15,433 nucleotides of DNA from positions 1 to 15,433 of the forward strand of contig DAIUEN010000013.1 in assembly GCA_036845085.1 (NCBI GenBank). Reading direction: 5' to 3'. A program made the position numbers and the translations under genes. Numbering within the stretch: the first letter of the stretch is position 1; the number at the start of each line of letters is the position of its first letter. The notes under the pieces were generated by a model. The model worked only from the letters and a program-made list of their open reading frames with translations, ran no database searches and was not told where the DNA came from. Shown piece by piece: positions 2,193 through 15,425 of this stretch. This DNA is from Candidatus Nanopusillus sp. GTDB lineage: Archaea; Nanobdellota; Nanobdellia; Nanobdellales; Nanobdellaceae.

Positions 2193-2215
2193 TTATATAT
2201 AAAAAGATCATTGAT

Positions 2216-2288
2216 AGCCCCGTCGTCTAGTGGTCTAGGATGTGGGGTTCTGGTCCCCATGACCGGGGTTCGAATCCCCGCGGGGCTA
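2216..2288 (+). tRNA. tRNA-Gln (anticodon CUG), no encoded CCA, no intron
   Basis: Hand-folded cloverleaf: acceptor AGCCCCG/CGGGGCT, D arm GTCT-agtggtcta-GGAT, anticodon stem TGGGG/CCCCA with loop ttCTGgt (U33, purine 37), T arm CGGGG-TTCGAAT-CCCCG, discriminator A. The A1-U72 pair is typical of archaeal tRNA-Gln. It is a GC-rich island in an AT-rich background. Confidence 0.9.
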
Positions 2289-2297
2289 TATAGCAAT

Positions 2298-4480: not shown

Positions 4481-4951
4481 ATGGTAGTTTATATCTATAC
4501 TAATGGGGGTGGAGAAGGAGTTTTAGCTACAGATTCATTAGAATTATTAAATATAGAAATTGAAGAAACTCCGGAGCATATAAAAGAGAAACTAAAACAA
4601 ATCTTACCATCTTTTGCATCTTTGAAGAATCCTATAGATGTTACAGCTCAAGCTAGCGAAGATCAATATCTTAGGGGTTTAGAAATAATAATTAATGATC
4701 CTAATACTGAAGGAGTTTTAGCTATACTTTTACCTCAATTATCATTATTTACAATTAATTTTCCTGAAAGATTTTCTAAAATGTTTTATAAGCAAAAGCC
4801 AGTAGTATTTGTGGTTTATGGTGGTGGTTTTACAGAAATTATTAAAAGAGAGTTAGAAAAATATGTACCAGTATTTGATTATCCTGACGAGGGGGCTAAA
4901 GCTTTAAAATTGTTGATAGATCTTAAGAAAAGTAAAAAATTATTTATCTAA
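4481..4951 (+). CDS. acdA: ADP-forming acetyl-CoA synthetase alpha subunit, C-terminal part (domain 5), as a separate ORF in the same frame
   Basis: 'VVYIYTNGGGEGVLATD' and 'LKNPIDVTAQA' match the conserved ..ITNaGGpGVLa.D and NP.D motifs of the alpha C-terminal domain. It shares the reading frame of 3578..4453 and is separated from it only by TAA-YHKL-TAA-INII. Confidence 0.75.
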   Translation: MVVYIYTNGGGEGVLATDSLELLNIEIEETPEHIKEKLKQILPSFASLKNPIDVTAQASEDQYLRGLEIIINDPNTEGVLAILLPQLSLFTINFPERFSKMFYKQKPVVFVVYGGGFTEIIKRELEKYVPVFDYPDEGAKALKLLIDLKKSKKLFI

Positions 4952-6239
4952 TTTTTCCTAATTTTGACAACGAAATATATACAGGACAGCTTTCTTTTCC
5001 TAGTTCATAACATTCTCCTTTAGTAATACAACTTGGCCCCATAACTTTACCATATATCTTTTGAAGATATTTAGCTACTGCTTCAAAGAAAATTCTTGTC
5101 TCTAATTGTGCTCTATGGCATGTTCTCTGTTCTATAATATATTCTATAGCTTGTTGTGGTATTAACATAGCTATCGGTATGTAAGTTCCCAATGGTATAT
5201 GATTTAGTTTTTCTATTATTTTTTCTTCTTTTTCTATAGCATGTTTAGAATATTCAACTACACGCTCAAATATATTTCTTATATCTTCTCTATTTTTTAT
5301 ATATGCTCCATAATATATACCTTTATATTCTAGAAATTGAGGCCAGGTCTTTGGAGGTAGAAGATATGGCATTATTTGTCTATGTCTTATGATTTGTCTT
5401 ATAATTGCTATTGGAAGTTCGCTTGTTATTAATATAGTGTCTAATGTATTATTTACACTAATATAAGTATTACTAGAATAATTTAAATCTAACTTAGTTC
5501 CGTATAATTCATTATATCCAAATTTTTCCATTAATTTTTTTTCATTAAACGATAAAGTTAGTGGTTTTTCTTTTTTAACTGGCTTTATTCCTAAATTTTC
5601 TTCTACAAATTTCTCTATTATTTCGCCCATTTCTACTAGATTTTCATTTTCTATTAATTTACTAACTTCTTTTAGATAATTAGCAAATTTAAAATAATCT
5701 CTGAATGGAGGAAACTGTAATATTACCCATGTCTCAGTTCCTAGAGGTAATATAAATCTAGCGGCTTCCTTAGGAATACCCTTTTCTATAGCATATTTAT
5801 AAGCTTCGAAATATGGAGCATATTTGTCTTCATAACCTAAATCACTTTTTAGTTCCGGAGGTTTTGAATATCTTAAAGAAAACTCTGTGCCCACACCATA
5901 TATTCCGAATCCAGGTCTTATGCCAAGCCACATTAAGAAAGATATAGAAATAGGAACTTCAATTAACATAAAATAATTCCCTGTTTCAATCATGTCTGGA
6001 TGATGCACTTCCATAAAAAGTTCAAATCTTCTATTAATTTCTTCTGGGTTTTTGTTTGCATAATCTATCAAATCTTCTAATCTTGACATAGAGATCTTTT
6101 TAGGTCCTCCAGTAGAGATTAAAGCTCTTAGGCCAATTATTTCTTTTGTTTCCCCTTTGGCAAATAAGATTTTATAATTTCCTATTTTTTGACTTTCTAA
6201 GATGCTAATAACCATTTTATATTGTTTTACTAAAATCAT
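4944..6239 (-). CDS. thyX: ThyX-like (FAD-dependent thymidylate synthase family) protein with two tandem ThyX-like domains
   Basis: 431 aa, about twice a normal ThyX. The first half has 'FSLRYSK' (S-x-RY) and 'KEAARFILPLGTET' (E.AR..LP). The second half has 'IIRQIIRHRQ' (the RHR motif), 'IPLGTY' and 'RTCHRAQLETR' (R....AQ.E.R). The C-terminus has C-x5-C-x7-C. Confidence 0.65.
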   Translation of the reverse strand: MILVKQYKMVISILESQKIGNYKILFAKGETKEIIGLRALISTGGPKKISMSRLEDLIDYANKNPEEINRRFELFMEVHHPDMIETGNYFMLIEVPISISFLMWLGIRPGFGIYGVGTEFSLRYSKPPELKSDLGYEDKYAPYFEAYKYAIEKGIPKEAARFILPLGTETWVILQFPPFRDYFKFANYLKEVSKLIENENLVEMGEIIEKFVEENLGIKPVKKEKPLTLSFNEKKLMEKFGYNELYGTKLDLNYSSNTYISVNNTLDTILITSELPIAIIRQIIRHRQIMPYLLPPKTWPQFLEYKGIYYGAYIKNREDIRNIFERVVEYSKHAIEKEEKIIEKLNHIPLGTYIPIAMLIPQQAIEYIIEQRTCHRAQLETRIFFEAVAKYLQKIYGKVMGPSCITKGECYELGKESCPVYISLSKLGKIR

Positions 6240-6324
6240 AAAAGATAACTTTTAATGTAACAAAGCATATTTTAGTACTATATATTTAAAAAATTTACTT
6301 TTATGTAGTTATCATTTTAGAAAA

Positions 6325-6337
6325 TTTTTTAAATATT
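6325..6337 (+). promoter_or_regulatory. TATA-like box for CDS 6356..7069
   Basis: 'ttttttaaatatt' is centred ~25 nt upstream of the ATG at 6356, within the 116-bp divergent intergenic region 6240-6355. Confidence 0.35.
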
Positions 6338-6355
6338 ATCTAATTTTCATATTTT

Positions 6356-7069
6356 ATGGTACAAAAGGTAGAAGAAATAATACGTCTGGTAGATCTTGCT
6401 AGAAAAGAAAAAGAGAAACTAGAAGAATTGATAAGATTGAAAAATATAATGTGGACGAAGAAAAAAAATATTTTAGAAAAAGTTAGAACAGTTAGAATAG
6501 AAAAGTTAGAAAATATAATCTATAATTATTATAGAGAATTTATTATTAGTGAATTAAAGAAGTACTTACCAGAATCAAACGAACTGATTAATTTTATGAA
6601 AGAATATTTATCTTTTTATAGTAATCTATATAAACATAAATTTTGTAGAGAATTAGATAAATTAATATCAAAATATAATAATAATAACTTAGAAGATATA
6701 ATTAACAGTAAGAAGTTTGAGATATTATCGAAATATATACTAAATGACTTAACTAAAATTATTACACATCAGCTTTTAGATATTTATGAAATATCAAAAG
6801 GTTGTAGACGCTTTAATGATAAATGTCTAAAAATACAAGAAATTATATCAAAAAATTACAAAGAAATATATGACATCAAAAACGATTATAAATCATTTGT
6901 AAATGGACTTTATAAGTATATAAACTACTATATAAATACTCTTAACAAATTTGTTTGGTATACTAAAGAGCTAAATGACGTACTAAGTAATAATGACTTT
7001 AAAAAAATATCAGAGTTATCAAAAAATGTAGAATTTTTAGAAATTTTGCATGCTCTTAATAGTTATTAA
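6356..7069 (+). CDS. hypothetical protein, helical or coiled-coil-like
   Basis: 237-aa ORF with an N-terminal K/E/L heptad-like segment ('ARKEKEKLEELIRLKN'). It has a TATA box at the leaderless distance and is followed by T-tracts. Confidence 0.5.
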   Translation: MVQKVEEIIRLVDLARKEKEKLEELIRLKNIMWTKKKNILEKVRTVRIEKLENIIYNYYREFIISELKKYLPESNELINFMKEYLSFYSNLYKHKFCRELDKLISKYNNNNLEDIINSKKFEILSKYILNDLTKIITHQLLDIYEISKGCRRFNDKCLKIQEIISKNYKEIYDIKNDYKSFVNGLYKYINYYINTLNKFVWYTKELNDVLSNNDFKKISELSKNVEFLEILHALNSY

Positions 7070-7078
7070 TATTTCTAA

Positions 7079-7089
7079 TTTTTATTTTT
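7079..7089 (+). terminator. oligo-T tract (TTTTTATTTTT), archaeal-type terminator candidate
   Basis: Two T5 runs lie 10-20 nt downstream of the stop codon at 7067-7069. Archaeal RNAP terminates at oligo-T. Confidence 0.35.
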
Positions 7090-7127
7090 GGTAATTAATA
7101 TTAATGAAATTTAAATATATATAAAGG

Positions 7128-7176
7128 GTCTTGTTAATATGTGTCGGATAACGGCAATTATCCGACTCTACAAGAC
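7128..7176. other. GC-rich nested inverted repeat: candidate small structured RNA or palindromic operator
   Basis: The outer arms GTCTTGT (7128-7134) and ACAAGAC (7170-7176) enclose the inner arms GTCGGATAA (7143-7151) and TTATCCGAC (7158-7166), with a 6-nt loop cggcaa. All pairings are perfect. The repeat directly follows 'tttaaatatatataaa' and is followed by 'cattttc'. Confidence 0.4.
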
Positions 7177-8070
7177 GAAGCATTTTCTACTTAAATAATT
7201 TTCTAGATGTTATTGTAACTTAATGATAATATAAGAAAAATTTAAAAATTTTTACTACAATAGAAATGATAGATCTTCTTTCTAGGTATAAACTAATAGA
7301 ATTTATAAGAAATATTGATTCTTGGAGAAAATCTGAAAAAGCAGCATTTATTGTTCTTCAAAAAGCTTTCTAATTACTATACAATAAAAACTCTATTATA
7401 AAATAATATCGAAAAATCCATATCATTATAAAAAATACGAAGAGTATTTTAAGATGATCAGAGAAATAGTTAAAGCAGGTCTACCCAAATATTTCTGTCA
7501 TGCAGAAATACCAGATTTACAAAGAGAATAGTCATTTTCTATAAATTTTAGTTGTTTAAATTTAGAAAAATATAATAATGAATTTACTAGACATATTAAA
7601 GAAAATGAGGATGAAAGTAAAACAGTTGACTCTAGAGAATTAGATAAATAACTTGAAGAAATGTTTTCTAAAGAAATAGGATTTTTTAAGTTTTCAGCAT
7701 GTGTGGAAGTTGTTTTAGCTATATGATCTTTTTGACCCAACTTAATATACCAATAGTTACTATGTAGTTAAATTTTTTTTAGTTTTTTATTTAGACTATA
7801 AATAAATCTAGCTTTTGATCTATATACAATAGCAACTTTATTAATGATGTTATATCAGAATTAGAGAGAATATCCCTTTGATGGAATATAAAGATTAGGA
7901 TTATTACTACCAAATATAAGTAACAAATTAATATGACAATTTCCGTTAATTAATTTTTAATAATTTAATCTACCCTAATTGATATAGAAATTTATCAAAA
8001 ATTTGTTGCATAATTATATAAGTCATCTTTGGTCTACTACTAAGTAGTAATATATTGTATTTTTTAATAA

Positions 8071-9306
8071 ATGTTATTCTATAAAAATAAATTTATGACA
8101 ACTCTGAAATTTACTCTGCTTATAGTAAGTTTCTTATTATTTTCTATGGTTAATTTTATTTTTTCTTATAACGTAGTTTATAAAGATACAGAATATATAC
8201 CTAACATAACTATAGAACCGAATATTGATAATTATTTATTTATTCCTGGTCAAAATATTTCCGGATATGTAATAATAAAAAATAACGATCCATACTATTA
8301 TCCACAGATTTTTTTAGCCATAATGTTGATCAAAGAAGATACTTATATGACAAGTAACAATCAAGTATTATATGCGGAATTAAAGATGATATCAAATTTA
8401 TTACCTTATCAAAACTATGTAGTAAATTTTACATATAGAATTCCTGAAAATATATCTTCTGGTAATTATAAATTAATGTTTTATCTATACACTGCAGTAA
8501 AGCACATAATAGGTAATCCAAATTTTTTTAATTCTACTTTTTATCGAGAAATATACATAAATAATACAGATTTTAATAATTATCCTTGGATATCTATTTT
8601 AAAAAATGAAACCAAATTAATTAATGATTCTAATATACTAAAATTAAATTTAGCTATATATTCTAACGATTCCACTTCTGCAAAAATAAGAGTTAAATTA
8701 GCTAAATGGGATGCTTTACTTTATGGACCAATATTGGATAGAATTTTTGTTATAAATTTGACAAAGGGATATCAAACTTTAATGTTCGATTTAGTAAATA
8801 TATCCAATTTTTATGCAGATTATTATTATCTTTTAATAGAAGTTTATTCTGAAGAGTTATTACAAGATATGTACATTATACCATATCATATTTATGGAGA
8901 AGCTATCTTATTTGATGGAATATATCTTGATAAAAATGGAAAACTTTTGGTAGTTTTGTCTACTTATCCTAATAATAGTATTGTTCATAAATTATATAAT
9001 GTAGAGCTTAAAGTATTTTCAAATAAACAAAAATTTACTAAAACAATTAAAATAGGTGATGTGGTTTATGATCATACAACTTATGTATACATTGAAGATT
9101 ACGTCCCTATTAGTAACGGAATGGATTTATGTTTTAATTTAACTTATCAGAAAGAATTTAGCGGTTTAGTATATTTATCAAATATATGTTACACTTATTA
9201 TGTAGAAGAGAATAAGAACTTTTCAATATCTTTAACTAGATTAAAAGTTATATTAGTAATGATTGTAACCTTAGCAATAATAACTTACTTTATACTAAAG
9301 AAATAA
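8071..9306 (+). CDS. surface-anchored glycoprotein candidate (N-terminal signal peptide, C-terminal TM anchor, dense N-glycosylation sequons)
   Basis: 411 aa. The hydrophobic N-terminus is 'TLKFTLLIVSFLLFSMVNFIFS' and the C-terminal TM is 'VILVMIVTLAIITYFILKK'. I counted 14 N-x-S/T sequons by hand. The true start may be the ATG at 8095, because 'tttaataaat' ends 23 nt upstream of it. Confidence 0.7.
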   Translation: MLFYKNKFMTTLKFTLLIVSFLLFSMVNFIFSYNVVYKDTEYIPNITIEPNIDNYLFIPGQNISGYVIIKNNDPYYYPQIFLAIMLIKEDTYMTSNNQVLYAELKMISNLLPYQNYVVNFTYRIPENISSGNYKLMFYLYTAVKHIIGNPNFFNSTFYREIYINNTDFNNYPWISILKNETKLINDSNILKLNLAIYSNDSTSAKIRVKLAKWDALLYGPILDRIFVINLTKGYQTLMFDLVNISNFYADYYYLLIEVYSEELLQDMYIIPYHIYGEAILFDGIYLDKNGKLLVVLSTYPNNSIVHKLYNVELKVFSNKQKFTKTIKIGDVVYDHTTYVYIEDYVPISNGMDLCFNLTYQKEFSGLVYLSNICYTYYVEENKNFSISLTRLKVILVMIVTLAIITYFILKK

Positions 9307-9314
9307 GTGTAAAA

Positions 9315-9324
9315 TTTATAAATA
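9315..9324 (+). promoter_or_regulatory. TATA box (contains TTATAAAT) for CDS 9349..10110
   Basis: An exact TTATAAAT at 9316-9323 ends 26 nt upstream of the ATG. Confidence 0.45.
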
Positions 9325-9348
9325 CTCTTATATATTTTATCTATTATA

Positions 9349-10110
9349 ATGTTTAGATCTATAATGATATATCTGAAATATTACAAGTTACTAACATTGT
9401 TATTTATGGTAATATTCTTTTATTTTGGTCACTATTCTCATGGACAAACATCCAAAATTTATGATGGAAATTATCTTTGTGATTATAGTCAATTGAGAAC
9501 ATTAAAATTTAATGCAATATATCCTCGAGGTTTCCCTCCTATGTTTCCTTTTTCTCTATGTGCAGAAACATATACTAGATATGAAACAACCTATGTAACT
9601 TATACTTCTACAGTAACAAGTACAGTAACCAATACAGTTTATGTTACTAATACTGTTACTGTAACCCAAACTGTGACTGATACTTACTATGTATCCACAA
9701 CATTAACATATTACGTATATAGAACATCTACAACATATGTTACTGTAACAAATACAGTAACTTATACGACAACACGAACATCTACTATTTATACTACAGT
9801 TTATTCTACAACAACTACGACAATATATGGAACTCTTACTGTTACATCTACTTCTACAGTAACTTCTACAGCTACTGCTTATACTACAGCTACAACAACA
9901 GTGTATTCTACAGCTACTTTTACATCGACTATCGCAGGAACCGCTACTACAACATCTACAATATGGAGTACTATATATACTACACTTTCTACAACTCAGA
10001 CACAAACAAGTACAATTACTAGTACAGTAACTAACAATGTATATACTACTGTTACTCTTACATCTACTGTAACGGCTAAAAAAACTTATTATACTCTATT
10101 ACAATCATAA
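9349..10110 (+). CDS. secreted Thr-rich protein (signal peptide, short 2-Cys head, ~170-aa Thr-alternating array, no membrane anchor)
   Basis: 253 aa. The signal-like N-terminus 'KLLTLLFMVIFFYFGHYSHG' is followed by 'YLC...SLC'. From residue ~74 the array runs 'TYVTYTSTVTSTVTNTVYVTNTVTVTQTVTD...'. It has a strong TATA box at the leaderless distance. Confidence 0.7.
   Translation: MFRSIMIYLKYYKLLTLLFMVIFFYFGHYSHGQTSKIYDGNYLCDYSQLRTLKFNAIYPRGFPPMFPFSLCAETYTRYETTYVTYTSTVTSTVTNTVYVTNTVTVTQTVTDTYYVSTTLTYYVYRTSTTYVTVTNTVTYTTTRTSTIYTTVYSTTTTTIYGTLTVTSTSTVTSTATAYTTATTTVYSTATFTSTIAGTATTTSTIWSTIYTTLSTTQTQTSTITSTVTNNVYTTVTLTSTVTAKKTYYTLLQS
9568..10074 (+). repeat. low-complexity Thr-codon array (ACN-GTN/TAY/TCN period-6 DNA repeat)
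   Basis: By hand count, about 79 of 169 codons are Thr, frequently at every second codon. It generates the spurious Cys/Ser/Arg-rich antisense ORF 9703..10005. Confidence 0.85.
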
Positions 10111-10115
10111 ATACG

Positions 10116-11246
10116 ATGAATAATACAAAGTATAGTTTGAAGAAGATTCTTAGTTATATTTTATTGTTTATTTTTGTATTATATAATTTTCCATCTATTT
10201 ATAGTAATTGTCAACTTATTGGTTTCAATCCTATAAATGGTTGTGAAATGTATGAATGTTATGTTACTGTAACATCTACTGTATATGTTACTAACACAGT
10301 TTATCGAACTGTAACTTACACATCTACATATTATTCTACAGTTACTAATACCGTTACAGTACGAGTTACAAAGACATATACATATTATACTACAGTCACC
10401 GATACCGTTACTGTTACATCAACAGTTACTTCGACTAATACAGTTACCGCAACGACAACGCGATATCTTACAATTACTACAACTTATGTTCTAACTAGTA
10501 CAGTAAATTCTGCTACAGCCACCACAACAGTATATGTCACTAACACTCAAACAACAACGACAACTGTAACTGCTTCAACAAATACTGTGACCTCAACAGT
10601 TACTACAACTATAACAACAAATATAGCTACAACCACCATTACTACGACAACAACATTAACAACAACATCTACAGTTTATTCTACTATTACTAATACACAA
10701 CATACAACAACCACAACAACAACTACATTTACTAATACATATTACTCAACAACAACCACCACAACCACCCTTAACTATGTATCTACTATAAGATTTAGAG
10801 GAATTCTTAATCTGGGATCAATTAATCAAAGTTTCGTCCAGTCTATAGACTTTCCTATAGTTGGAGAAAGAACAATTTTCTATTTAAATATATCCAATTT
10901 AGGAAATGCTACTGTAAATAATATGATTTTAAGATTTTCTCTTACTGGAGGAAATATAAGGATGTTTTATAATAATACCGAAATTTCCTCATTAGATGCT
11001 ATTGTTATTTCTTCTGAAATTCCACCAAACGGCTATATAATAATACCATTTGACATGAATATACTAGCTTTTGGATCTTCTAGTTTAGATATATATGTTT
11101 TTGTAGATAACCAATACTTAGGGTATGTAACCTATCAATTTAACGTTAAGCCAGAAAATAGACAAAGTTCTCTAGTTATCTCTGAAAATATAATATATAT
11201 TTTGGCAATTTTTATTACCGTTTTACTAATATGGTTAATCATATAG
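10116..11246 (+). CDS. membrane-anchored Thr-rich surface protein (signal peptide, 3-Cys head, ~177-aa Thr-rich array, CARDB-like beta-sandwich region, C-terminal TM)
   Basis: 376 aa. The signal is 'ILSYILLFIFVLYNFPSIYS' and the head is 'NCQLIGFNPINGCEMYEC'. The array runs from 'YVTVTSTVYVTNTV' to 'HTTTTTTTTFTNTYYSTTTTTTT'. 'FYLNISNLGNATVNNMILRFSL' resembles CARDB/APHP-type domains, and the C-terminal TM is 'IIYILAIFITVLLIWLII'. It starts 5 nt after the previous stop. Confidence 0.75.
   Translation: MNNTKYSLKKILSYILLFIFVLYNFPSIYSNCQLIGFNPINGCEMYECYVTVTSTVYVTNTVYRTVTYTSTYYSTVTNTVTVRVTKTYTYYTTVTDTVTVTSTVTSTNTVTATTTRYLTITTTYVLTSTVNSATATTTVYVTNTQTTTTTVTASTNTVTSTVTTTITTNIATTTITTTTTLTTTSTVYSTITNTQHTTTTTTTTFTNTYYSTTTTTTTLNYVSTIRFRGILNLGSINQSFVQSIDFPIVGERTIFYLNISNLGNATVNNMILRFSLTGGNIRMFYNNTEISSLDAIVISSEIPPNGYIIIPFDMNILAFGSSSLDIYVFVDNQYLGYVTYQFNVKPENRQSSLVISENIIYILAIFITVLLIWLII
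10260..10790 (+). repeat. low-complexity Thr-codon array, shifting from alternating T-x-T to homopolymeric Thr runs
   Basis: This covers residues ~49-225 of the CDS. Mixed ACA/ACT/ACC/ACG codons are used. The region around 10700-10775 is nearly G-free on the + strand. Confidence 0.85.
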
Positions 11247-11263
11247 CTCATATTAATCACATC

Positions 11264-11271
11264 TTAAAAAT
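11264..11271 (+). promoter_or_regulatory. TATA-like box for CDS 11293..12513
   Basis: 'ttaaaaat' ends 22 nt upstream of the ATG at 11293. Confidence 0.35.
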
Positions 11272-11292
11272 TTTTCTTTTATTTATTGGATT

Positions 11293-12513
11293 ATGAACCT
11301 AAAAACATTAATAATTTTAGTATTTTTAGTTTTTATTATTTTGGTGACGTTAGATTATTTTTTAGCAAATTTTCCTAAAAAAAATTTAAATATAAAAGTA
11401 TTGGAAATAACTATTCATAATCCAACAGAATGTACACTTTTTGTCCCATACCAACAAAAAATACGGGTTAATGGTTCAATTATGGAGAAATACAAAATAA
11501 ATACAGATGGATCTAATGTTTTTTTCTTTACTAATTTAAGTAATCCTAATGAGTCAATTTTATTTTCATGGTTTGCTGGATACTATGGAAATGAAGCTAT
11601 ATGGTGGGTCAAATTAACTGATAAAATCCCGCCAAATGGAAATATTACAATATATATGTATATAGGATCTCCAGAAGATAATTACTATAAATCTTATTAT
11701 CCGTACGTAGGAATATCTTCTTTTGTATATAATAATTATAGCTGGGGACCTAAGAGCCAATATGATAATGGTAAATTTGTTTTTACTTTTTATGGATGGT
11801 TTTATGAGACATTAGACGGATGGTATGGCCTTATTAAACATGGTTCATATAATGTGACTCCAACAAATAAGGGAGTTGAAATGATTGGAAATACTATAAA
11901 TCAAGGATCTTATATAATGCCATATAATACTGGTAATATTAGTATAGCTCCAATAATTGTAGAAGAGGGTTGGTTTTATGATGGAGAAGCAGATGCTCAT
12001 ACAATTTCTTTATTTGGCGAATCATTTTTTGGAAGGAGTAGAGCAGTTTTTGCTTCTGGAGTCAACAAGCTAGGTGGTTCTACACCAGCTCTTTACGGTT
12101 CCGTATTTGTCCAATATGAATACTATAATCTATCACCTAGAATATATATATCTTACATAGGAAGTAACAATTCTTTACAGTTATACGAAGGACCTTTTAT
12201 TATCAATAAAACCAGTAATTATTTATATACATACTTTGCAATAGACTTTTGTGATAATGATAGTAAAGTATACGCAAGTACTGGATACTTTTTATTAGAT
12301 AACATACCGCCAATTTCCCTATTAGGTACTCTAGATAGTAATTATAGAGTTTCTGTGGAATTTGATAGGAAAATGTTATCTGGTAATCATTTTGCAATTG
12401 GTGCTGGGAGCGGTTTAGAATCTACTTCCTTACAATCTGTTTTCTGGATTGTAGGTAGAACCCACCCACCAAGAGGAATTATGCCAGAAGTATATTTTAG
12501 AGAAATAAGATAG
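11293..12513 (+). CDS. N-terminally anchored extracellular protein with a DUF2341-like plus ConA/LamG-like region
   Basis: 406 aa. The signal-anchor is 'LIILVFLVFIILVTL'. 'DGSNVFFF...ILFSWFAGYYGNEAIWWVKLTDKIPPNGNITIYMYIG' fits the DUF2341 pattern (dG.di.F...l.yw......a.vWVK.p.i...g..tIYmYYG). I counted 11 N-x-S/T sequons by hand. Confidence 0.6.
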   Translation: MNLKTLIILVFLVFIILVTLDYFLANFPKKNLNIKVLEITIHNPTECTLFVPYQQKIRVNGSIMEKYKINTDGSNVFFFTNLSNPNESILFSWFAGYYGNEAIWWVKLTDKIPPNGNITIYMYIGSPEDNYYKSYYPYVGISSFVYNNYSWGPKSQYDNGKFVFTFYGWFYETLDGWYGLIKHGSYNVTPTNKGVEMIGNTINQGSYIMPYNTGNISIAPIIVEEGWFYDGEADAHTISLFGESFFGRSRAVFASGVNKLGGSTPALYGSVFVQYEYYNLSPRIYISYIGSNNSLQLYEGPFIINKTSNYLYTYFAIDFCDNDSKVYASTGYFLLDNIPPISLLGTLDSNYRVSVEFDRKMLSGNHFAIGAGSGLESTSLQSVFWIVGRTHPPRGIMPEVYFREIR

Positions 12514-12524
12514 TGACATTATTT

Positions 12525-12533
12525 TTTATAAAT
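12525..12533 (+). promoter_or_regulatory. TATA box (contains TTATAAAT) for the GT-C gene
   Basis: An exact TTATAAAT at 12526-12533 ends 21 nt upstream of the ATG at 12554. Confidence 0.45.
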
Positions 12534-12553
12534 TTTTTTAAAGTAGATAAGTT

Positions 12554-13738
12554 ATGAATATATTTTATAAAATATATGAATTCATCCAAAGAAATATAAT
12601 AATTGAAAAAATCTATAAGTTTATATTAAAATATCCATTTTATTTAATCTTGTCTATTCTGCTAATTTTTTATACATATAAAACGATCTCTGTATTTTAT
12701 CCAATTGATTCTTATATATCTGACGAAGTATGGTATGCGTCTTCTGCCTATAATATTTTTACAAAGATCTTTAGAATTCCTATTGAACAATATGTACCTT
12801 TTCCAGAAGGAAAGAATCTTGAAAATTATTTTAATCTAGAACATCCCCCATTAGCCAAATATATAATAGGATTTTTTATATTTCTATTTGGATATACATA
12901 CTGGGCTTGGAGAATTCCTAGTTGGATAATAGGAAATCTTATAGTAATTTTATCATTTTTAATAACTAGAAAAATAGTTGGTGAAAATGTTTTTGGGAAT
13001 ATTGCTGGTATAATTGTAGCAGCTTTGATTATGTCAGATCCTAATATATGGATTATGCATGGAATAGCTATGTTAGACATATATTTAGCATTCTTCTCTC
13101 TATTGTCAATATATTATCTATTAAAAGATAAAATTATTTTGTCTTCAATATCATATGGTTTAGCATTATCTTCAAAATTACCAGCCGTATTTTTAATATT
13201 CCCTTTTTTATACTATATAACAAAAAAATATAATGAAAGAATAAAAAGATTAATATATGGAATATTGATTCCTTTTTCTGTGTATGTGATTTTAAATATA
13301 CCGCTATTAGTATATTTTGGTCTAACTAAATGGTTTTATGATAGTTTTTTACATGGTTTCGAATGGGGAATAACTTCAGGTCACATATCGGATGCTCCAA
13401 ATCAGGTTTCAAAACCATGGCAATGGTTATTAAATATAAATCCATTTTATTTTGGGACATACTATAGCAATGTATTTTATGCGAATGTAAATATATATTT
13501 TATGATCTTATGGTTAGTAACCATACCAATAATGTTTTTAGTTAGAGATAATAAAATTATTCTAGTAGGAATTTATCCGTTATTTATGTATTTTGGTTAT
13601 ATATTGATATATATCTTGGGAAATGATACATTGTTCAGTTTCTATGTTTCCCAATTTATGCCTTTAATATACATTTATGTAATCTCCTCTTTGTTTTTGT
13701 TGGGCTTAAAATATTACTACAGAGATTATAAAATTTAA
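12554..13738 (+). CDS. GT-C fold glycosyltransferase, PMT-like (GT39/PMT_2 family; polyprenyl-phosphate-sugar:protein O-glycosyltransferase candidate)
   Basis: 394 aa and multi-pass, with roughly 9-11 hydrophobic segments. The first extracytoplasmic loop carries the acidic motif 'ISDEVWYASSAYNIF' (compare FDE.YY..dA in bacterial and eukaryotic PMTs). It is followed by 'LEHPPLAKYIIGF' (compare the HPPLGK signature). Confidence 0.72.
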   Translation: MNIFYKIYEFIQRNIIIEKIYKFILKYPFYLILSILLIFYTYKTISVFYPIDSYISDEVWYASSAYNIFTKIFRIPIEQYVPFPEGKNLENYFNLEHPPLAKYIIGFFIFLFGYTYWAWRIPSWIIGNLIVILSFLITRKIVGENVFGNIAGIIVAALIMSDPNIWIMHGIAMLDIYLAFFSLLSIYYLLKDKIILSSISYGLALSSKLPAVFLIFPFLYYITKKYNERIKRLIYGILIPFSVYVILNIPLLVYFGLTKWFYDSFLHGFEWGITSGHISDAPNQVSKPWQWLLNINPFYFGTYYSNVFYANVNIYFMILWLVTIPIMFLVRDNKIILVGIYPLFMYFGYILIYILGNDTLFSFYVSQFMPLIYIYVISSLFLLGLKYYYRDYKI

Positions 13739-13743
13739 AAACG

Positions 13744-13752
13744 TTTATAAAT
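13744..13752 (+). promoter_or_regulatory. TATA box (contains TTATAAAT) for the small membrane protein
   Basis: An exact TTATAAAT at 13745-13752 ends 22 nt upstream of the ATG at 13774. This supports that ATG over the TTG at 13756 used by the ORF track. Confidence 0.4.
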
Positions 13753-13773
13753 GTATTGATAAAAATAATTTTT

Positions 13774-14013
13774 ATGTCTGAAGAATATGAAGAACTTTAT
13801 GCAACGAAACCTCAAGTTATTCTTTCTTTAATTACTACAATAATAGTTTTATCAATTATATTACCTACCTTATTTTTATTCCCATTCAATATTAAATTAT
13901 TTCTGGCTGGTGCTGGAACTATTCTTTTATTGATTATATTAGATGTTTTTGTTTATTTATCTTATTTAGGAAAATTTCCCCTTTATAGAATTAAGAGATA
14001 TAAGAAGGAATGA
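13774..14013 (+). CDS. small two-TM membrane protein (79 aa from ATG 13774; the ORF track extends to TTG 13756)
   Basis: It has two hydrophobic helices, 'VILSLITTIIVLSIILPTLFLF' and 'LFLAGAGTILLLIILDVFVYLSYL', and a basic tail 'RIKRYKKE'. The TATA box sits at the leaderless distance from ATG 13774. Confidence 0.5.
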   Translation: MSEEYEELYATKPQVILSLITTIIVLSIILPTLFLFPFNIKLFLAGAGTILLLIILDVFVYLSYLGKFPLYRIKRYKKE

Positions 14014-14043
14014 TAAATTGTTTTAACTATTAAGTAGTAAATG

Positions 14044-14053
14044 CTTATAAATA
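14044..14053 (+). promoter_or_regulatory. TATA box (contains TTATAAAT) for CDS 14073..15425
   Basis: An exact TTATAAAT at 14045-14052 ends 21 nt upstream of the ATG at 14073. Confidence 0.45.
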
Positions 14054-14072
14054 TTATTTATAAGATTTTTTT

Positions 14073-15425
14073 ATGATTAAAAATCTAGACTCACTAGTAA
14101 GTAGTATAAAAAATTTTAGAAATAAAATTTATAATAATCTAGATTTATTATTACAAATTTTTGTACGTTCTTTGGCGTTATCTACTAGGTATGGTAGTGC
14201 TCTTATGGTAGTACACTATAATTTTTCAAATATGCCAGATATTGTTAAATTTAGTGGAATTAAGAAAAAGATTATAGATTTATTCCAAAGAGAAGAAATC
14301 GTATATATATCTGCAGTGATATCTACTATAGCACTATTAATGTTTTTTACAAATATTCTCAATATGGATAAATATTATCAAACGGATATTTTAGTTAATC
14401 AAAGTATAGATGTAGATAATACAAATAAGAAAATAGTTTTTTGGGTAGTCCCTTGGTATAGAGAAAATTATACAATAAGTGGAGTTGAGGAAATTATAAA
14501 AGTAATAGAAAATTACAAATACAATAATATATATGTTGGCTTAGTTATTCCTTTAGATCAATTGGAACAAAAAGGACAATATGTATCTGTAATAAATAAT
14601 ACTATAAACTATATTATAAACAAAAGACCTGAATTATCTAATACGATATTCATCAATATTTTTCCTACATCTTCAGAAACTTTTAGAGGAGATCTTATAA
14701 ATTATGAGCTTTCCCAAGATCATGCAAAGTATATTACTTATATAACAAAAAAGTTGGTTGATAATGGATATAATATATATATTGGATTTAGTGAAATGGA
14801 TGGTTTAGTAAATAGAAATCCTAACTTATTAATTAAAAATTATGAAATAATACTAAATGAATTAGTTAAAGAAGGTGTAAATCTTAATAAAGTAGGGCTA
14901 TATTATTATAGTACTCATAATGTGGTCATAAATAATTTTAAATTAGTTGGCGATATGTTATTAAACTTAGCTAATAATTACGGAATAAAATCTAATGTAT
15001 ACATAGGTTTAGATAATTATAATTATAGATTTTCCGAATGTGATATGAATGGCAAGGCAGATTTACCAAATTACTTTGCTTTAAGAATTAAAGAATTATC
15101 TGAATATTATAAAGGAAATGATAAAATTAAAATAATGGTTGGAGAAATAGGAGTACCTCTGGGAAAAGAATGCGTTTCTAATTTATGGTACGATTTATCT
15201 AAGGGATGGGATTATGAAAAAGTTCTAAAATATTCTAAAGATAGTATGATTATGTGGAAATTAGTATTAGATTCTTATAAAGAATTTGATAATAATCTAT
15301 CAAATAAAATAAGTTTGGTTGGTATCTATGAAGTTGGAGGGAAAGAATATAATATATTTCTTCTTCCACAGGAAGAAAAAGATAATATTATTAAATACAT
15401 TATAGAATTCTCTATGTCAGGATAG
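14073..15425 (+). CDS. membrane-anchored extracellular protein with a (beta/alpha)8-barrel-like pattern; possible clan GH-A-like glycosidase (function speculative)
   Basis: 450 aa with one TM ('IVYISAVISTIALLMFFTNIL'). It is followed by about eight alternating hydrophobic strand/helix units: IVFWVVPW, IYVGLVIPL, TIFINIFPT, IYIGFSEMDG, KVGLYYYST, NVYIGLDNY, IKIMVGEIGVP, ISLVGIYEVGG. Glu residues sit at the ends of putative strands 4 and 7. Confidence 0.55.
   Translation: MIKNLDSLVSSIKNFRNKIYNNLDLLLQIFVRSLALSTRYGSALMVVHYNFSNMPDIVKFSGIKKKIIDLFQREEIVYISAVISTIALLMFFTNILNMDKYYQTDILVNQSIDVDNTNKKIVFWVVPWYRENYTISGVEEIIKVIENYKYNNIYVGLVIPLDQLEQKGQYVSVINNTINYIINKRPELSNTIFINIFPTSSETFRGDLINYELSQDHAKYITYITKKLVDNGYNIYIGFSEMDGLVNRNPNLLIKNYEIILNELVKEGVNLNKVGLYYYSTHNVVINNFKLVGDMLLNLANNYGIKSNVYIGLDNYNYRFSECDMNGKADLPNYFALRIKELSEYYKGNDKIKIMVGEIGVPLGKECVSNLWYDLSKGWDYEKVLKYSKDSMIMWKLVLDSYKEFDNNLSNKISLVGIYEVGGKEYNIFLLPQEEKDNIIKYIIEFSMSG

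What the first reader, a model, noticed from the sequence alone, without database searches (positions are those of the whole stretch)
8071..15425. Candidate archaeal protein O-glycosylation / cell-surface module: a PMT-like GT-C transferase encoded beside two secreted Thr-rich proteins
Seen in the sequence: seven co-directional genes with short spacers, and every product carries a signal peptide or TM segment. Two adjacent products are secreted proteins with Thr-rich arrays, about 47% Thr over ~170 residues in the one I counted. Two genes downstream lies a multi-pass protein with the DE-loop and HPPL(A)K signatures of dolichyl/polyprenyl-phosphate-mannose:protein O-mannosyltransferases. It is flanked by a DUF2341/lectin-like protein, a small 2-TM protein and a barrel-like putative glycosidase.

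Established knowledge: GT39 PMTs O-mannosylate Ser/Thr-rich stretches of translocating proteins in fungi, animals and actinobacteria. Thr-rich regions of haloarchaeal S-layer proteins are O-glycosylated. To my knowledge no archaeal O-glycosyltransferase has been identified.

Inference: the enzyme/substrate adjacency suggests a self-contained O-glycosylated surface-fibre or stalk system.
Basis: partly seen in the sequence, partly recalled or inferred. Interest (0 to 1): 0.8.

Follow-up and report, generated by a model that had tools for sequence, protein, structure and literature searches.

The report
Archaeal PMT-like glycosyltransferase beside threonine-array proteins
A tiny hot-spring symbiotic archaeon keeps a membrane sugar-transferase gene (related to the enzymes that put mannose on Ser/Thr of secreted proteins) locked next to two secreted proteins that are half threonine and a lectin-like protein, giving a testable enzyme-substrate candidate for archaeal O-glycosylation, whose enzyme is still unknown; the function itself is not proven.

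Summary
Seven co-directional genes (8071-15425) all encode signal- or TM-bearing products. Two are 46-59% Thr over 100-170 residues. g5 (12554-13738) passes the Pfam PMT and PMT_2 thresholds and models confidently (pLDDT 95) as a minimal 11-helix GT-C enzyme.

The window comes from a Nanopusillus-like nanoarchaeon. The block g1-g5 is conserved in every Nanopusillaceae genome examined, although both flanks differ. g6 and g7 are window-specific, and g7 is an orphan, so the "glycosidase" label has no support. g4 has an L-type-lectin fold.

The enzyme's acceptor is unresolved:
- The fold matches ArnT and Pmt4 equally well.
- Sequence profiles favour bacterial protein O-mannosyltransferase (88 of 98 family members) over ArnT (9 of 98).
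- The closest non-nanoarchaeal relatives (46-50% identity) are Sulfolobales Agl1/Saci_0421. That gene sits beside N-glycan sugar genes, has no Thr-rich neighbour, and was untestedly proposed as an N-glycan transferase.
- Haloferax AglS shows that a Dol-P-Man-dependent enzyme can finish N-glycans.

The GT39 annotation and Agl1's PMT domain are already published. The conserved substrate adjacency appears new. I judge the O-glycosylation module plausible (about 0.45) but unproven.

The parts
8071..9306 (+). g1: 411-aa surface protein with an N-terminal signal and a C-terminal TM anchor; strongly enriched in N-glycosylation sequons.
   Evidence: There are 14 sequons against 4.7 expected (P<0.001). 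Orthologs of 55-57% identity sit at the same position in N. stetteri, N. acidilobi and RSNP5. Only sub-threshold Pfam hits.
9349..10110 (+). g2: 253-aa secreted protein with a signal peptide, two Cys, a Thr array (residues 71-245, nt 9559-10083, 45% Thr, no Pro, no sequon) and a conserved C-terminal TYYTL(L/I)QS motif.
   Evidence: Ortholog alignment A4 shows Thr invariant at alternate positions, with variable residues between them and length indels. Orthologs are present in L008, L009, L011 and L012.
10116..11246 (+). g3: 376-aa protein with a signal peptide, a Cys-containing N-terminus, a Thr array (residues 49-225, nt 10260-10790, 51% Thr), a sequon-bearing beta-rich domain and a C-terminal TM anchor.
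   Evidence: In alignment A5 the C-terminal domain and its NxS/T sites are conserved. tblastn finds orthologs in eight loci.
11293..12513 (+). g4: 406-aa N-terminally anchored ectoprotein with a DUF2341-like sandwich and an L-type (legume/ERGIC-53-like) lectin fold. It belongs to a family whose named members are all Nanopusillus or other nanoarchaea; some paralogs carry type IV pilin N-termini.
   Evidence: AF2 model has pLDDT 86.5. The Foldseek top 50 are all L-type lectins, E about 1e-8. The family has 103 hits; of 75 scanned, 9 match DUF2341, 8 Pilin_N and 5 Arch_flagellin. There are 11 sequons against 4.4 expected. It lies directly upstream of the GT-C gene in all relatives.
12554..13738 (+). 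g5: 394-aa minimal GT-C glycosyltransferase of the PMT/PMT_2 (GT39-like) family, an ortholog of Sulfolobales Agl1 (Saci_0421, arCOG00561). Motifs: SDEVWY nt 12719-12736, EHPPLAK nt 12839-12859, WRIPS nt 12908-12922, MLDIY nt 13070-13084.
   Evidence: Pfam and NCBIfam hits. Homologs. AF2 pLDDT 95, pTM 0.92. Foldseek finds ArnT and Pmt4. A profile alignment to C. thermophilum Pmt4 shares HPPLxK, an Arg and an LLD motif, but is weak (E 0.13). Invariant and near-invariant D57, E58, E96, H97, P98, P99, L100, K102, R120, D175, K208.
13756..14013 (+). g6: small 2-TM protein (85 aa from TTG; public calls use 79 aa from ATG at 13774). It is window-lineage-specific and not part of the conserved block.
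   Evidence: No homolog in any related locus. In relatives a 155-160 aa type IV pilin-like gene occupies this position.
14073..15425 (+). g7: 450-aa orphan membrane protein with one TM at residues 74-98. Function unknown; not part of the conserved block.
   Evidence: Only self-hits in both large protein searches. No Pfam, NCBIfam or PDB hit. The same gene is present on three contigs of the same population.

Best explanation
g1-g5 form a conserved cell-surface gene block of a Nanopusillus-like ectosymbiotic nanoarchaeon. g5 is a minimal GT-C enzyme whose active site (the DE loop after TM1) faces outward.

Proposed mechanism (inferred):
1. g5 takes a hexose, most likely mannose or glucose, from dolichyl-phosphate-hexose made on the cytoplasmic face.
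2. It transfers the hexose to hydroxyls of the period-2 Thr arrays of g2 and g3 as they leave the Sec pore.
3. The arrays become stiff, soluble, protease- and heat-resistant glycosylated stalks or fibres.
4. g3 is membrane-anchored and g2 is released or associated.
5. g1 and g4 are N-glycosylated co-residents of the same surface structure. g4 is a lectin-fold head that may bind glycans, either the symbiont's own or the host's.

Shown: the family, fold, motifs and topology of g5; the composition and periodicity of the arrays; the conserved linkage; the lectin fold of g4.

Inferred: the donor (from the family's neighbourhoods), the protein acceptor and the biological role.
For: (1) g5 exceeds the Pfam PMT and PMT_2 thresholds.

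(2) Across 98 family members, 88 hit the curated bacterial protein O-mannosyltransferase model (best E 3.9e-17). Only 9 hit ArnT, 5 hit Agl23 and 2 hit STT3. The only PDB sequence the family profile touches is a Pmt4, with collinear HPPLxK, Arg and LLD motifs, but at a non-significant E of 0.13.

(3) The high-confidence GT-C model has its best TM-score (0.67) to C. thermophilum Pmt4.

(4) g1-g2-g3-g4-g5 keep the same order in N. stetteri, N. acidilobi and Nanopusillus RSNP5 (L009). A second RSNP5 contig (L012) starts within the block and holds g2-g5. Shorter contigs (L001-L004, L010) hold the g3-g4-g5 or g4-g5 end. Identity is 55-65%. Both flanks differ from the window: a 3.1-kb insertion upstream, and g6/g7 in place of a pilin gene downstream.

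(5) Thr arrays are rare otherwise. Only 1 of 103 g4-family surface paralogs has one, and there are none elsewhere in the 21-kb flanks.

(6) The arrays contain no N-sequons, 0 and 1 against about 3 and 11 expected. Any glycan on them must therefore be O-linked. By contrast g1, g4 and the g3 C-terminal domain are sequon-enriched.

(7) The donor is supported at family level. The commonest immediate neighbour of non-Nanopusillus homologs is a GT2 fused to a GtrA/DPMS TM domain, a Dol-P-hexose synthase type (9 of 110 flanking genes). N. acidilobi has a 2-TM glycosyltransferase next to phosphomannomutase.

(8) Independent, weaker recurrences exist. A TxT-array protein lies directly downstream in a Pyrodictiaceae MAG (L052). 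A Thr-stalk protein is adjacent in a Nitrososphaeria MAG (L047). Pilin-like or S/T-rich surface genes lie beside the homolog in L030 and L091.

(9) In relatives, the next gene is a pilin with 22-33% S+T and 2-2.6% charged residues. This matches the composition of the heavily O-glycosylated Sulfolobales pili (PMC7347861). Sulfolobales carry the Agl1 ortholog, and their O-glycan is a single mannose with no known transferase (PMC11607397).

(10) There is a precedent for co-encoding a GT-C enzyme with its Ser/Thr-rich adhesin substrates: the S. mutans pgf cluster (PMC12041528).
Against: - No experiment bears on it. The cluster's proteins were not detected in the N. acidilobi proteome.
- Fold search does not separate PMT from ArnT (E 3e-6 versus 6e-6), and AglB and ALG3/12 also match.
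- The NCBIfam match is 48 bits against a cutoff of 800 and covers only the N-terminal third.
- The closest orthologs outside Nanopusillaceae (Sulfolobales 46-50% identity, Thermoproteus 42-44%) have no Thr-rich neighbour within about 10 kb, apart from distant genes in L023 and L024.
- In S. acidocaldarius the ortholog is agl1, beside agl2-agl4, which make UDP-sulfoquinovose for the N-glycan.
- Conserved order among genomes of one family may be inherited synteny rather than functional coupling.
- N. acidilobi cells bound WGA, while ConA (alpha-Man/Glc) labelled the host (PMC4935971). This argues against abundant exposed alpha-mannose on the symbiont.
- The period-2, Pro-free arrays look beta-strand-like rather than like classical disordered PMT substrates.
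Confidence: 0.45

Rival explanations
1. g5 is an N-glycan-finishing (AglS/ALG-like) transferase. It adds a hexose from Dol-P-hexose to a lipid-linked or already Asn-linked glycan on the outer face. It sits in a surface-protein cluster because g1, g4 and the g3 C-terminal domain are heavily N-glycosylated. The Thr arrays are unrelated to its activity.
For: - The S. acidocaldarius ortholog is agl1, next to agl2-agl4. It was proposed, though never tested, to act on the N-glycan.
- The Sulfolobus N-glycan contains two alpha-mannoses whose transferases are unknown.
- Haloferax AglS transfers Man from Dol-P-Man to the Asn-linked tetrasaccharide and is said to be distantly PMT-related.
- Foldseek also matches ALG3, ALG12 and AglB.
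- N. acidilobi has AglB, AglH-like and flippase genes, so an N-glycosylation pathway exists.
- g1 and g4 are 2.5-3-fold sequon-enriched.
Against: - Curated profiles favour protein O-mannosyltransferase, 88 of 98 members.
- The agl1 proposal invoked UDP-sulfoquinovose, which is not a GT-C-type donor, and it was based on adjacency alone.
- This reading does not explain why the rare Thr-array genes are the ones locked to the enzyme across the family.
- No AglS sequence could be compared here.
Confidence: 0.3
2. The linkage is inherited synteny without dedicated coupling. g5 is a general housekeeping GT-C enzyme with some acceptor. g2 and g3 are unglycosylated beta-rich fibre or stalk proteins whose all-Thr face is structural, like the TxT faces of beta-solenoids.
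For: - All syntenic genomes belong to one family, at 55-65% identity.
- Upstream ACD genes are also syntenic in relatives.
- Strict period-2 Thr with V/Y/I between and no Pro suggests beta-strands.
- ConA did not label N. acidilobi.
Against: - Both flanks of the block have been rearranged while the block stayed intact.
- Only the Thr phase of the arrays is conserved, and array lengths vary by indels. This is more typical of a compositional or modified stalk than of a precisely folded domain.
- Weak independent recurrences exist in unrelated lineages.
Confidence: 0.15
3. g5 glycosylates a lipid or a non-protein polymer, such as a glycolipid head group or lipoglycan, in the manner of ArnT or PimE.
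For: - ArnT is the top Foldseek hit by E-value, and PimE and the Emb proteins also match.
- PMT_2 is a broad family.
- Some relatives also hit GT87.
Against: - Only 9 of 98 members touch the ArnT model, and weakly.
- No lipid-glycan biosynthesis genes lie in the block.
- Nanoarchaeota are reported to obtain their lipids from the host (general knowledge, not tested here).
Confidence: 0.1

Closest known systems
Protein O-mannosyltransferases (GT39: fungal/animal Pmt1/2/4 and POMT; actinobacterial Pmt)
   Same: - GT-C fold.
- Outward-facing DE motif after TM1.
- HPPL(A/G)K, conserved Arg and LLD motifs.
- Pfam PMT hit above threshold.
- Likely Dol-P-hexose donor.
- Candidate acceptors are Thr-rich secreted proteins.
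   Different: - g5 has only 394 aa, against roughly 500-800 aa (from memory).
- No MIR domain.
- 16-18% structural-alignment identity.
- Far below the bacterial Pmt equivalog cutoff.
- The candidate substrates are period-2, Pro-free arrays rather than disordered Ser/Thr/Pro regions.
- Activity is untested.
Sulfolobales Agl1 (Saci_0421; arCOG00561)
   Same: - True ortholog group: 46-50% identity over about 90% of the length.
- Same size and same invariant residues.
- Joint clade with bootstrap 77.
   Different: - In Sulfolobales the gene lies beside DeoC and agl2-agl4 sugar-nucleotide genes and has no Thr-array neighbours.
- Its function is only a published guess (sulfoquinovose transfer to the N-glycan).
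Haloferax volcanii AglS (Dol-P-Man : N-glycan mannosyltransferase)
   Same: - An archaeal membrane enzyme acting on the outer face with a Dol-P-mannose donor.
- Reported to be distantly PMT-related.
   Different: - Its acceptor is an Asn-linked tetrasaccharide.
- Its sequence relationship to g5 could not be tested here.
Streptococcus mutans Pgf cluster (PgfS, PgfM1/M2 with Cnm, CnaB, CbpA) and GtrB/PgtC2
   Same: - A GT-C enzyme using a lipid-phosphate sugar O-glycosylates extracytoplasmic Ser/Thr-rich regions.
- The enzyme genes are co-encoded with their adhesin substrates.
   Different: - Bacterial.
- A YfhO-family GT-C, not PMT/PMT_2.
- The GT-A synthase is in the same operon, whereas none is in this window.
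- Undecaprenyl rather than dolichyl carrier.
ArnT (GT83)
   Same: - Best Foldseek E-value.
- Same GT-C_A architecture.
- Shares the PMT_2 Pfam family.
   Different: - Its lipid A acceptor does not exist in archaea.
- Sequence profiles prefer Pmt over ArnT (88 versus 9 members).

Membership tests
GT39 / Pfam PMT (PF02366) protein O-mannosyltransferase | Profile match above the curated threshold | tested here: met
   PMT scores 30.4 bits against cutoff 22.7, and PMT_2 36.6 against 26.1. The match covers only residues 97-231.
GT39 / Pfam PMT (PF02366) protein O-mannosyltransferase | GT-C fold with a catalytic Asp-Glu in the first extracytoplasmic loop, plus an HPPLxK/Arg donor-binding set | tested here: met
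   AF2 pLDDT 95. GT-C hits only. D57, E58, H97, P98, P99, L100, K102, R120 and D175 are invariant or at least 90% conserved. They align to Pmt4's HPPLGK, Arg and LLD motifs, but in a weak alignment (E 0.13). The catalytic roles are assumed from PMT literature and were not tested.
GT39 / Pfam PMT (PF02366) protein O-mannosyltransferase | Luminal MIR domain between late TM helices (eukaryotic PMTs) | tested here: not met
   The 394-aa model has only a 40-residue loop with a beta-hairpin (residues 274-313) and no extra domain. Bacterial Pmts also lack MIR; that point is from memory.
GT39 / Pfam PMT (PF02366) protein O-mannosyltransferase | Full-length equivalence to characterised bacterial Pmt (NCBIfam NF058602, cutoff 800 bits) | tested here: not met
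   48.5 bits, covering positions 40-207 of 530. It is nonetheless the best curated family for 88 of 98 relatives.
GT39 / Pfam PMT (PF02366) protein O-mannosyltransferase | Transfers mannose from Dol-P-Man to Ser/Thr of a protein | not testable with these tools
   Needs biochemistry or glycoproteomics.
Agl1 / arCOG00561 ortholog group | Close full-length orthology to Saci_0421-type proteins | tested here: met
   46-50% identity over 88-95% coverage to Sulfolobales proteins. L005 shows the ortholog followed by NTP_transferase, epimerase and BadF genes, matching agl2-agl4 (PMC4388408). NJ clade bootstrap 77. The N. acidilobi ortholog is labelled arCOG00561.
Agl1 / arCOG00561 ortholog group | Neighbourhood of N-glycan sugar-nucleotide genes (agl2-agl4) | tested here: not met
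   None are present in the window or in any Nanopusillaceae locus.
AglS-type Dol-P-Man:N-glycan mannosyltransferase | Sequence relationship to HVO_1526 | not tested
ArnT / GT83 | Profile match and lipid A acceptor | tested here: not met
   g5 itself has no ArnT-model hit at E<=1. Only 9 of 98 relatives hit it weakly. The fold similarity is shared with PMT. Archaea have no lipid A (general knowledge).
Pgf-like GT-C plus substrate gene cluster | GT-C gene co-encoded with Ser/Thr-rich surface protein genes | tested here: met
Pgf-like GT-C plus substrate gene cluster | YfhO-family GT-C and an adjacent GT-A lipid-P-sugar synthase | tested here: not met
   The family is PMT/PMT_2, not YfhO. There is no GT2 gene in the window. 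A GT2-DPMS gene is adjacent only in Nitrososphaeria and Hadarchaeum homologs.
L-type (legume/ERGIC-53) lectin, for g4 | Lectin jelly-roll fold | tested here: met
   The Foldseek top 50 are all L-type lectins, including the M. jannaschii 7elv structure. E is 1e-8 to 3e-7 and target-normalised TM 0.5-0.6.
L-type (legume/ERGIC-53) lectin, for g4 | Sequence-profile membership and conserved metal- and sugar-binding residues | tested here: inconclusive
   No lectin Pfam hit, only weak DUF2341. Binding-site residues were not examined.

The most novel reading that the evidence does not exclude
The minimal Agl1-type GT39 enzyme is the long-sought archaeal protein O-glycosyltransferase. In Nanopusillaceae it is genetically locked to its own substrates: period-2 Thr-array proteins and, in relatives, a low-charge S/T-rich pilin. 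It is also locked to a lectin-fold protein. Together they build a glycan-coated stalk or fibre that the ectosymbiont uses at its surface, possibly in host contact. The same enzyme would then account for O-mannose on Sulfolobales pili, threads and cytochrome b558/566.
Probability: 0.35. Interest if true: 0.8.

Novelty: new member of a known kind. Interest (0 to 1): 0.6.

Why it matters
Archaeal O-glycosylation has been known for decades on haloarchaeal S-layers, on Sulfolobus cytochrome b558/566 and on Sulfolobales pili. It was recently reported on the thread filament. Even so, reviews and primary papers up to 2024 still call the pathway and its transferase elusive (PMC8241124, PMC11607397).

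This locus gives a compact, conserved pairing of a candidate enzyme with candidate substrates. The organism's relative, N. acidilobi, is in co-culture. The enzyme also has an ortholog (saci_0421) in a genetically tractable archaeon.

A positive result would assign a function to arCOG00561 across Crenarchaeota and DPANN. It would extend PMT-type chemistry to the third domain. It would also bear on how the eukaryotic lumenal GT-C enzymes arose.

If the result is negative, the block is still a conserved surface module of an obligate ectosymbiont, with a lectin-fold protein, that may be relevant to host attachment.

Tried and rejected
- A PDB sequence search with g5 alone found nothing. The family profile gave only a non-significant Pmt4 hit.
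- g7 as a glycosidase is rejected for lack of any evidence: no family, PDB or homolog hit.
- Recent transfer of the gene from the current host is not supported. The Nanopusillaceae clade is sister to, not nested within, Sulfolobales plus Thermoproteus. N. acidilobi's host family (Acidilobaceae) has only a 32%-identity homolog. The NJ tree is crude and the direction of any transfer remains open.
- The opposite-strand ORF 9703-10005 inside g2 is an artefact of ACN codon runs. The + frame is conserved with its signal peptide and C-terminal motif.
- The Thr arrays are not slippage repeats. Tandem Repeats Finder finds only short low-score fragments.
- The Sulfolobales 492-499 aa polytopic protein upstream of agl1 was checked as a possible flippase and has no Pfam hit.
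- Promoter and terminator scans were not run. The tool models sigma-70 sites, and the DNA is 22% GC.

Full report
**What is there.** The window is about 25% GC and carries typical archaeal housekeeping genes: a radical-SAM TYW1-like gene, a tRNA-Gln, a split ADP-forming acyl-CoA synthetase and a ThyX-like gene.

From 8071 to 15425 there are seven + strand ORFs, separated by 42, 5, 46, 40, 17 and 59 nt. Hydropathy confirms that each product has a signal-like or TM segment.

g2 and g3 are extraordinarily Thr-rich. g2 is 47% Thr over 150 residues, and g3 is 59% over 100 and 52% over 170. The other proteins are 3-6% Thr.

The arrays have these properties:
- They are not recent DNA repeats.
- They contain no Pro.
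- They have a strong period-2 pattern. T-T pairs at lag 2 number 50 against 35+-3.3 expected, and 62 against 45+-3.4. Lag 1 is depleted.

**Whose genome.** The best homologs of g5 are 64-66% identical proteins labelled Candidatus Nanopusillus. A scan of one genome per species returned Nanobsidianus stetteri, Nanopusillus acidilobi 7A and three further contigs from two Nanopusillus MAGs at 63-65% identity. None is identical. The window is thus an unrepresented species or genus of Nanopusillaceae, which are obligate ectosymbionts of hot-spring Crenarchaeota. The same contig (15.7 kb) occurs in three metagenome assemblies.

**The enzyme.**
- *Profile hits.* g5 (394 aa) passes the Pfam gathering thresholds for PMT_2 (36.6 against 26.1 bits) and PMT (30.4 against 22.7). 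Its only NCBIfam hit is the actinobacterial protein O-mannosyltransferase model (E 5.5e-13). That hit is 48 bits against a cutoff of 800 and covers only the N-terminal third.
- *Conserved residues.* An alignment of 98 relatives has invariant E96, P98, P99, L100, K102 and K208. Y54, D57, E58, H97, R120 and D175 are at least 90% conserved.
- *Structure.* AlphaFold2 with that alignment gives pLDDT 95 and pTM 0.92. The model is a bundle of about 11 helices with a 70-residue first outer loop carrying the DE motif, and no extra domain.
- *Sequence profiles discriminate better.* Of the 98 members, 88 hit the protein O-mannosyltransferase model (best 3.9e-17). Only 9 hit ArnT, 5 hit Agl23 and 2 hit archaeal STT3. 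The only PDB sequence touched by the family profile is a Pmt4. It shows collinear HPPL(A/G)K, (W/F)R..P and LLD matches, but at a non-significant E of 0.13.

That criterion is not met, but neither is membership of characterised PMTs established.

**Synteny.** In N. stetteri (L008), N. acidilobi (L011) and one Nanopusillus RSNP5 contig (L009), homologs of g1, g2, g3, g4 and g5 occur in the same order and orientation. Identities are 47-65%, and the Thr arrays reach 46-60% Thr over 80 residues. The second RSNP5 contig (L012) begins inside the block and holds g2-g5. The shorter contigs (L010, L001-L004) hold the g3-g4-g5 or g4-g5 end.

The flanks are not conserved:
- In relatives the block follows the acyl-CoA synthetase genes directly. 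The window has a 3.1-kb insertion there.
- In relatives the block is followed by a 155-160 aa type IV pilin-like gene (Pilin_N). The window has g6 and g7 instead.
- g6 and g7 have no homologs in any related locus. g7 has no homolog other than itself among 5.8 billion cluster representatives (word-index search) or 1.8 billion representatives (full HMMER scan).

The conserved unit is therefore g1-g5, and the 'putative glycosidase' has no support.

**Outside Nanopusillaceae the picture changes.** The next-closest homologs are Sulfolobales proteins (46-50% identity) and Thermoproteus proteins (42-44%). In S. acidocaldarius the gene is followed by an NTP-transferase, an epimerase and a BadF-type kinase. 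That layout is agl1 (saci0421) followed by agl2-agl4. The literature records only an untested proposal that Agl1 transfers sulfoquinovose to the N-glycan (PMC4388408).

Among about 58 non-Nanopusillus loci, Thr-rich ORFs lie next to the GT-C gene in only a few cases:
- A Pyrodictiaceae MAG (L052), with a TxT-type array directly downstream.
- A Nitrososphaeria MAG (L047), where the adjacency is not conserved in its sister L045.
- Another nanoarchaeote (L030), where pilin-like proteins with T-rich tails lie 1.5-3 kb away.

A 37%-identity homolog (L091) is preceded by a pilin-like S/T-rich protein and a sequon-rich anchored protein.

A census of 110 immediately flanking genes shows that the commonest neighbour is a GT2 fused to a GtrA/DPMS TM domain (9 cases, directly upstream in Nitrososphaeria and Hadarchaeum). 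This supports a dolichyl-phosphate-hexose donor for the family.

A neighbour-joining tree places the Nanopusillaceae clade (bootstrap 100) as sister to Sulfolobales plus Thermoproteus (joint bootstrap 77), not inside Sulfolobaceae. The gene belongs to the Agl1 subfamily, but a recent host-to-symbiont transfer is not shown.

**The other proteins.**
Of 75 members scanned, 9 match DUF2341, 8 Pilin_N and 5 Arch_flagellin. Its model (pLDDT 86.5) matches only L-type lectins in the top 50: legume lectins, ERGIC-53, VIP36 and an M. jannaschii lectin domain, at E about 1e-8. The 'lectin-like' reading is supported at fold level. Sugar binding is not shown.
- *Sequons.* g1 and g4 are enriched in N-glycosylation sequons, 14 against 4.7 and 11 against 4.4 expected (P<=0.001). 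The arrays have essentially none. g3's sequons sit in its conserved C-terminal domain.
- *Array conservation.* Ortholog alignments show that the arrays conserve the Thr phase. The intervening residues (V, S, N, Y, I, A) and the array length vary.
- *Rarity of arrays.* Only 1 of 103 g4-family paralogs has a Thr array, so such arrays are not a general feature of these surface proteins.

**Context from the literature.**
[quoted passage not shown] Its neighbours Nps_02610 to Nps_02625 are uncharacterised. None was detected by shotgun proteomics.
- The same genome has an AglB-type protein, an AglH-like enzyme and a flippase. It also has a 2-TM glycosyltransferase beside phosphomannomutase.
- N. acidilobi cells bound WGA, whereas ConA labelled the host. 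This is mild evidence against abundant exposed alpha-mannose.
- Lombard (2016) already noted that Agl1 bears a PMT domain, in the context of archaeal O-mannosylation, and that AglS is distantly PMT-related.
- AglS transfers mannose from Dol-P-Man to an Asn-linked glycan.
- Sulfolobus O-glycans are single mannoses, and the transferase is 'currently elusive'. The haloarchaeal pathway is likewise unknown.
- Sulfolobales adhesive pili are extensively O-glycosylated, with 37% S/T and 1.5% charged residues. The pilin next to the GT-C gene in Nanopusillus relatives has 22-33% S+T and 2-2.6% charged residues.
- In S. mutans, GT-C enzymes that O-glycosylate Ser/Thr-rich regions are encoded with their adhesin substrates.

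**Verdict.**
- *Most likely (about 0.45).* g5 is a Dol-P-hexose-dependent protein O-glycosyltransferase. Its preferred substrates include the adjacent Thr arrays, within a five-gene surface block that also holds a lectin-fold protein.
- *Main rival (about 0.3).* An AglS-like role in finishing N-glycans on the sequon-rich neighbours.
- *Less likely.* Inherited synteny with unglycosylated beta-rich arrays (about 0.15), or a lipid or polymer acceptor (about 0.1).

The enzyme family and its annotation are known. The conserved enzyme-substrate-lectin linkage in Nanopusillaceae appears not to have been described. It makes an open question directly testable.

Noticed in passing
window 7128-7176 (within the non-coding gap 7070-8070): A nested GC-richer hairpin (GTCTTGT..GTCGGATAA-CGGCAA-TTATCCGAC..ACAAGAC) lies in a 1-kb stretch of about 21% GC with no convincing ORF. 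MFE is -19 to -20 kcal/mol, with z -3.1 on the + strand and -4.0 on the - strand. There is no Rfam or tRNA match, and the only other copy is on the same contig (L088).
   Followed up: partly
window 4944-8070: A 3.1-kb insertion relative to N. acidilobi and N. stetteri, where the acyl-CoA synthetase beta gene is followed directly by the g1 homolog. It holds a 431-aa ThyX-like gene on the - strand (Thy1, two stretches; it overlaps the end of the upstream gene by 8 nt), a 237-aa orphan ORF (6356-7069) and the non-coding gap. No clear terminal repeats were found.
   Followed up: partly
L011 11385-11867, L008 11392-11859, L012 4406-4873, L010 3046-3513, L001 3700-4167, L004 2294-2761: In all relatives the gene after the GT-C gene is a type IV pilin-like protein (MKGISPIIATILLIVMTVAIAG...). 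It has 22-33% S+T and only 2-2.6% charged residues, a composition like the heavily O-glycosylated Sulfolobales adhesive pilins. It is missing from the window, where orphan g6 and g7 take its place.
   Followed up: partly
g4 family (P0122-P0224; window 11293-12513): The lectin-fold/DUF2341 ectodomain forms a large paralog family (103 hits) in which every source-named member is a Nanopusillus or other nanoarchaeon. Several members are fused to archaellin or type IV pilin N-termini. This would suit lectin-tipped pili or adhesins of an ectosymbiont facing a glycosylated host S-layer.
   Followed up: partly
L032, L045, L047, L076 (and 5 further flanking genes in the census, not individually identified): In Nitrososphaeria and Hadarchaeum a GT2 fused to a GtrA/DPMS transmembrane domain (Dol-P-hexose synthase type) lies directly upstream of, and co-directional with, the GT-C homolog. 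This is a two-gene donor-plus-transferase module.
   Followed up: partly
L052 11409-12227 and 1828-2805 (Pyrodictiaceae MAG): An N-anchored protein with a TxT-type Thr array (TTITSTVTHTVTKTVTFTV...) lies immediately downstream of a 37%-identity GT-C homolog. A second protein, 57% Thr over 80 residues, lies 8 kb upstream. This is an independent recurrence of the adjacency in a free-living crenarchaeote.
   Followed up: no
L009 and L012 (Nanopusillus sp. RSNP5 MAG): The same MAG carries two copies of the block on different contigs (g1-g5 on L009, g2-g5 on L012). This is either a duplication or two strains binned together.
   Followed up: no
window 2215-2289 and 1775-2155: tRNA-Gln(CTG) (58.6 bits in Rfam), and a 126-aa AdoMet-decarboxylase-like ORF on the - strand (Pfam AdoMet_dc, E 4e-6). 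These are ordinary housekeeping features.
   Followed up: no
window 9703-10005 (- strand): A 100-aa Cys/Ser/Arg-rich ORF lies antisense to the g2 Thr array. It is a mechanical by-product of ACN codon runs, not a gene.
   Followed up: yes
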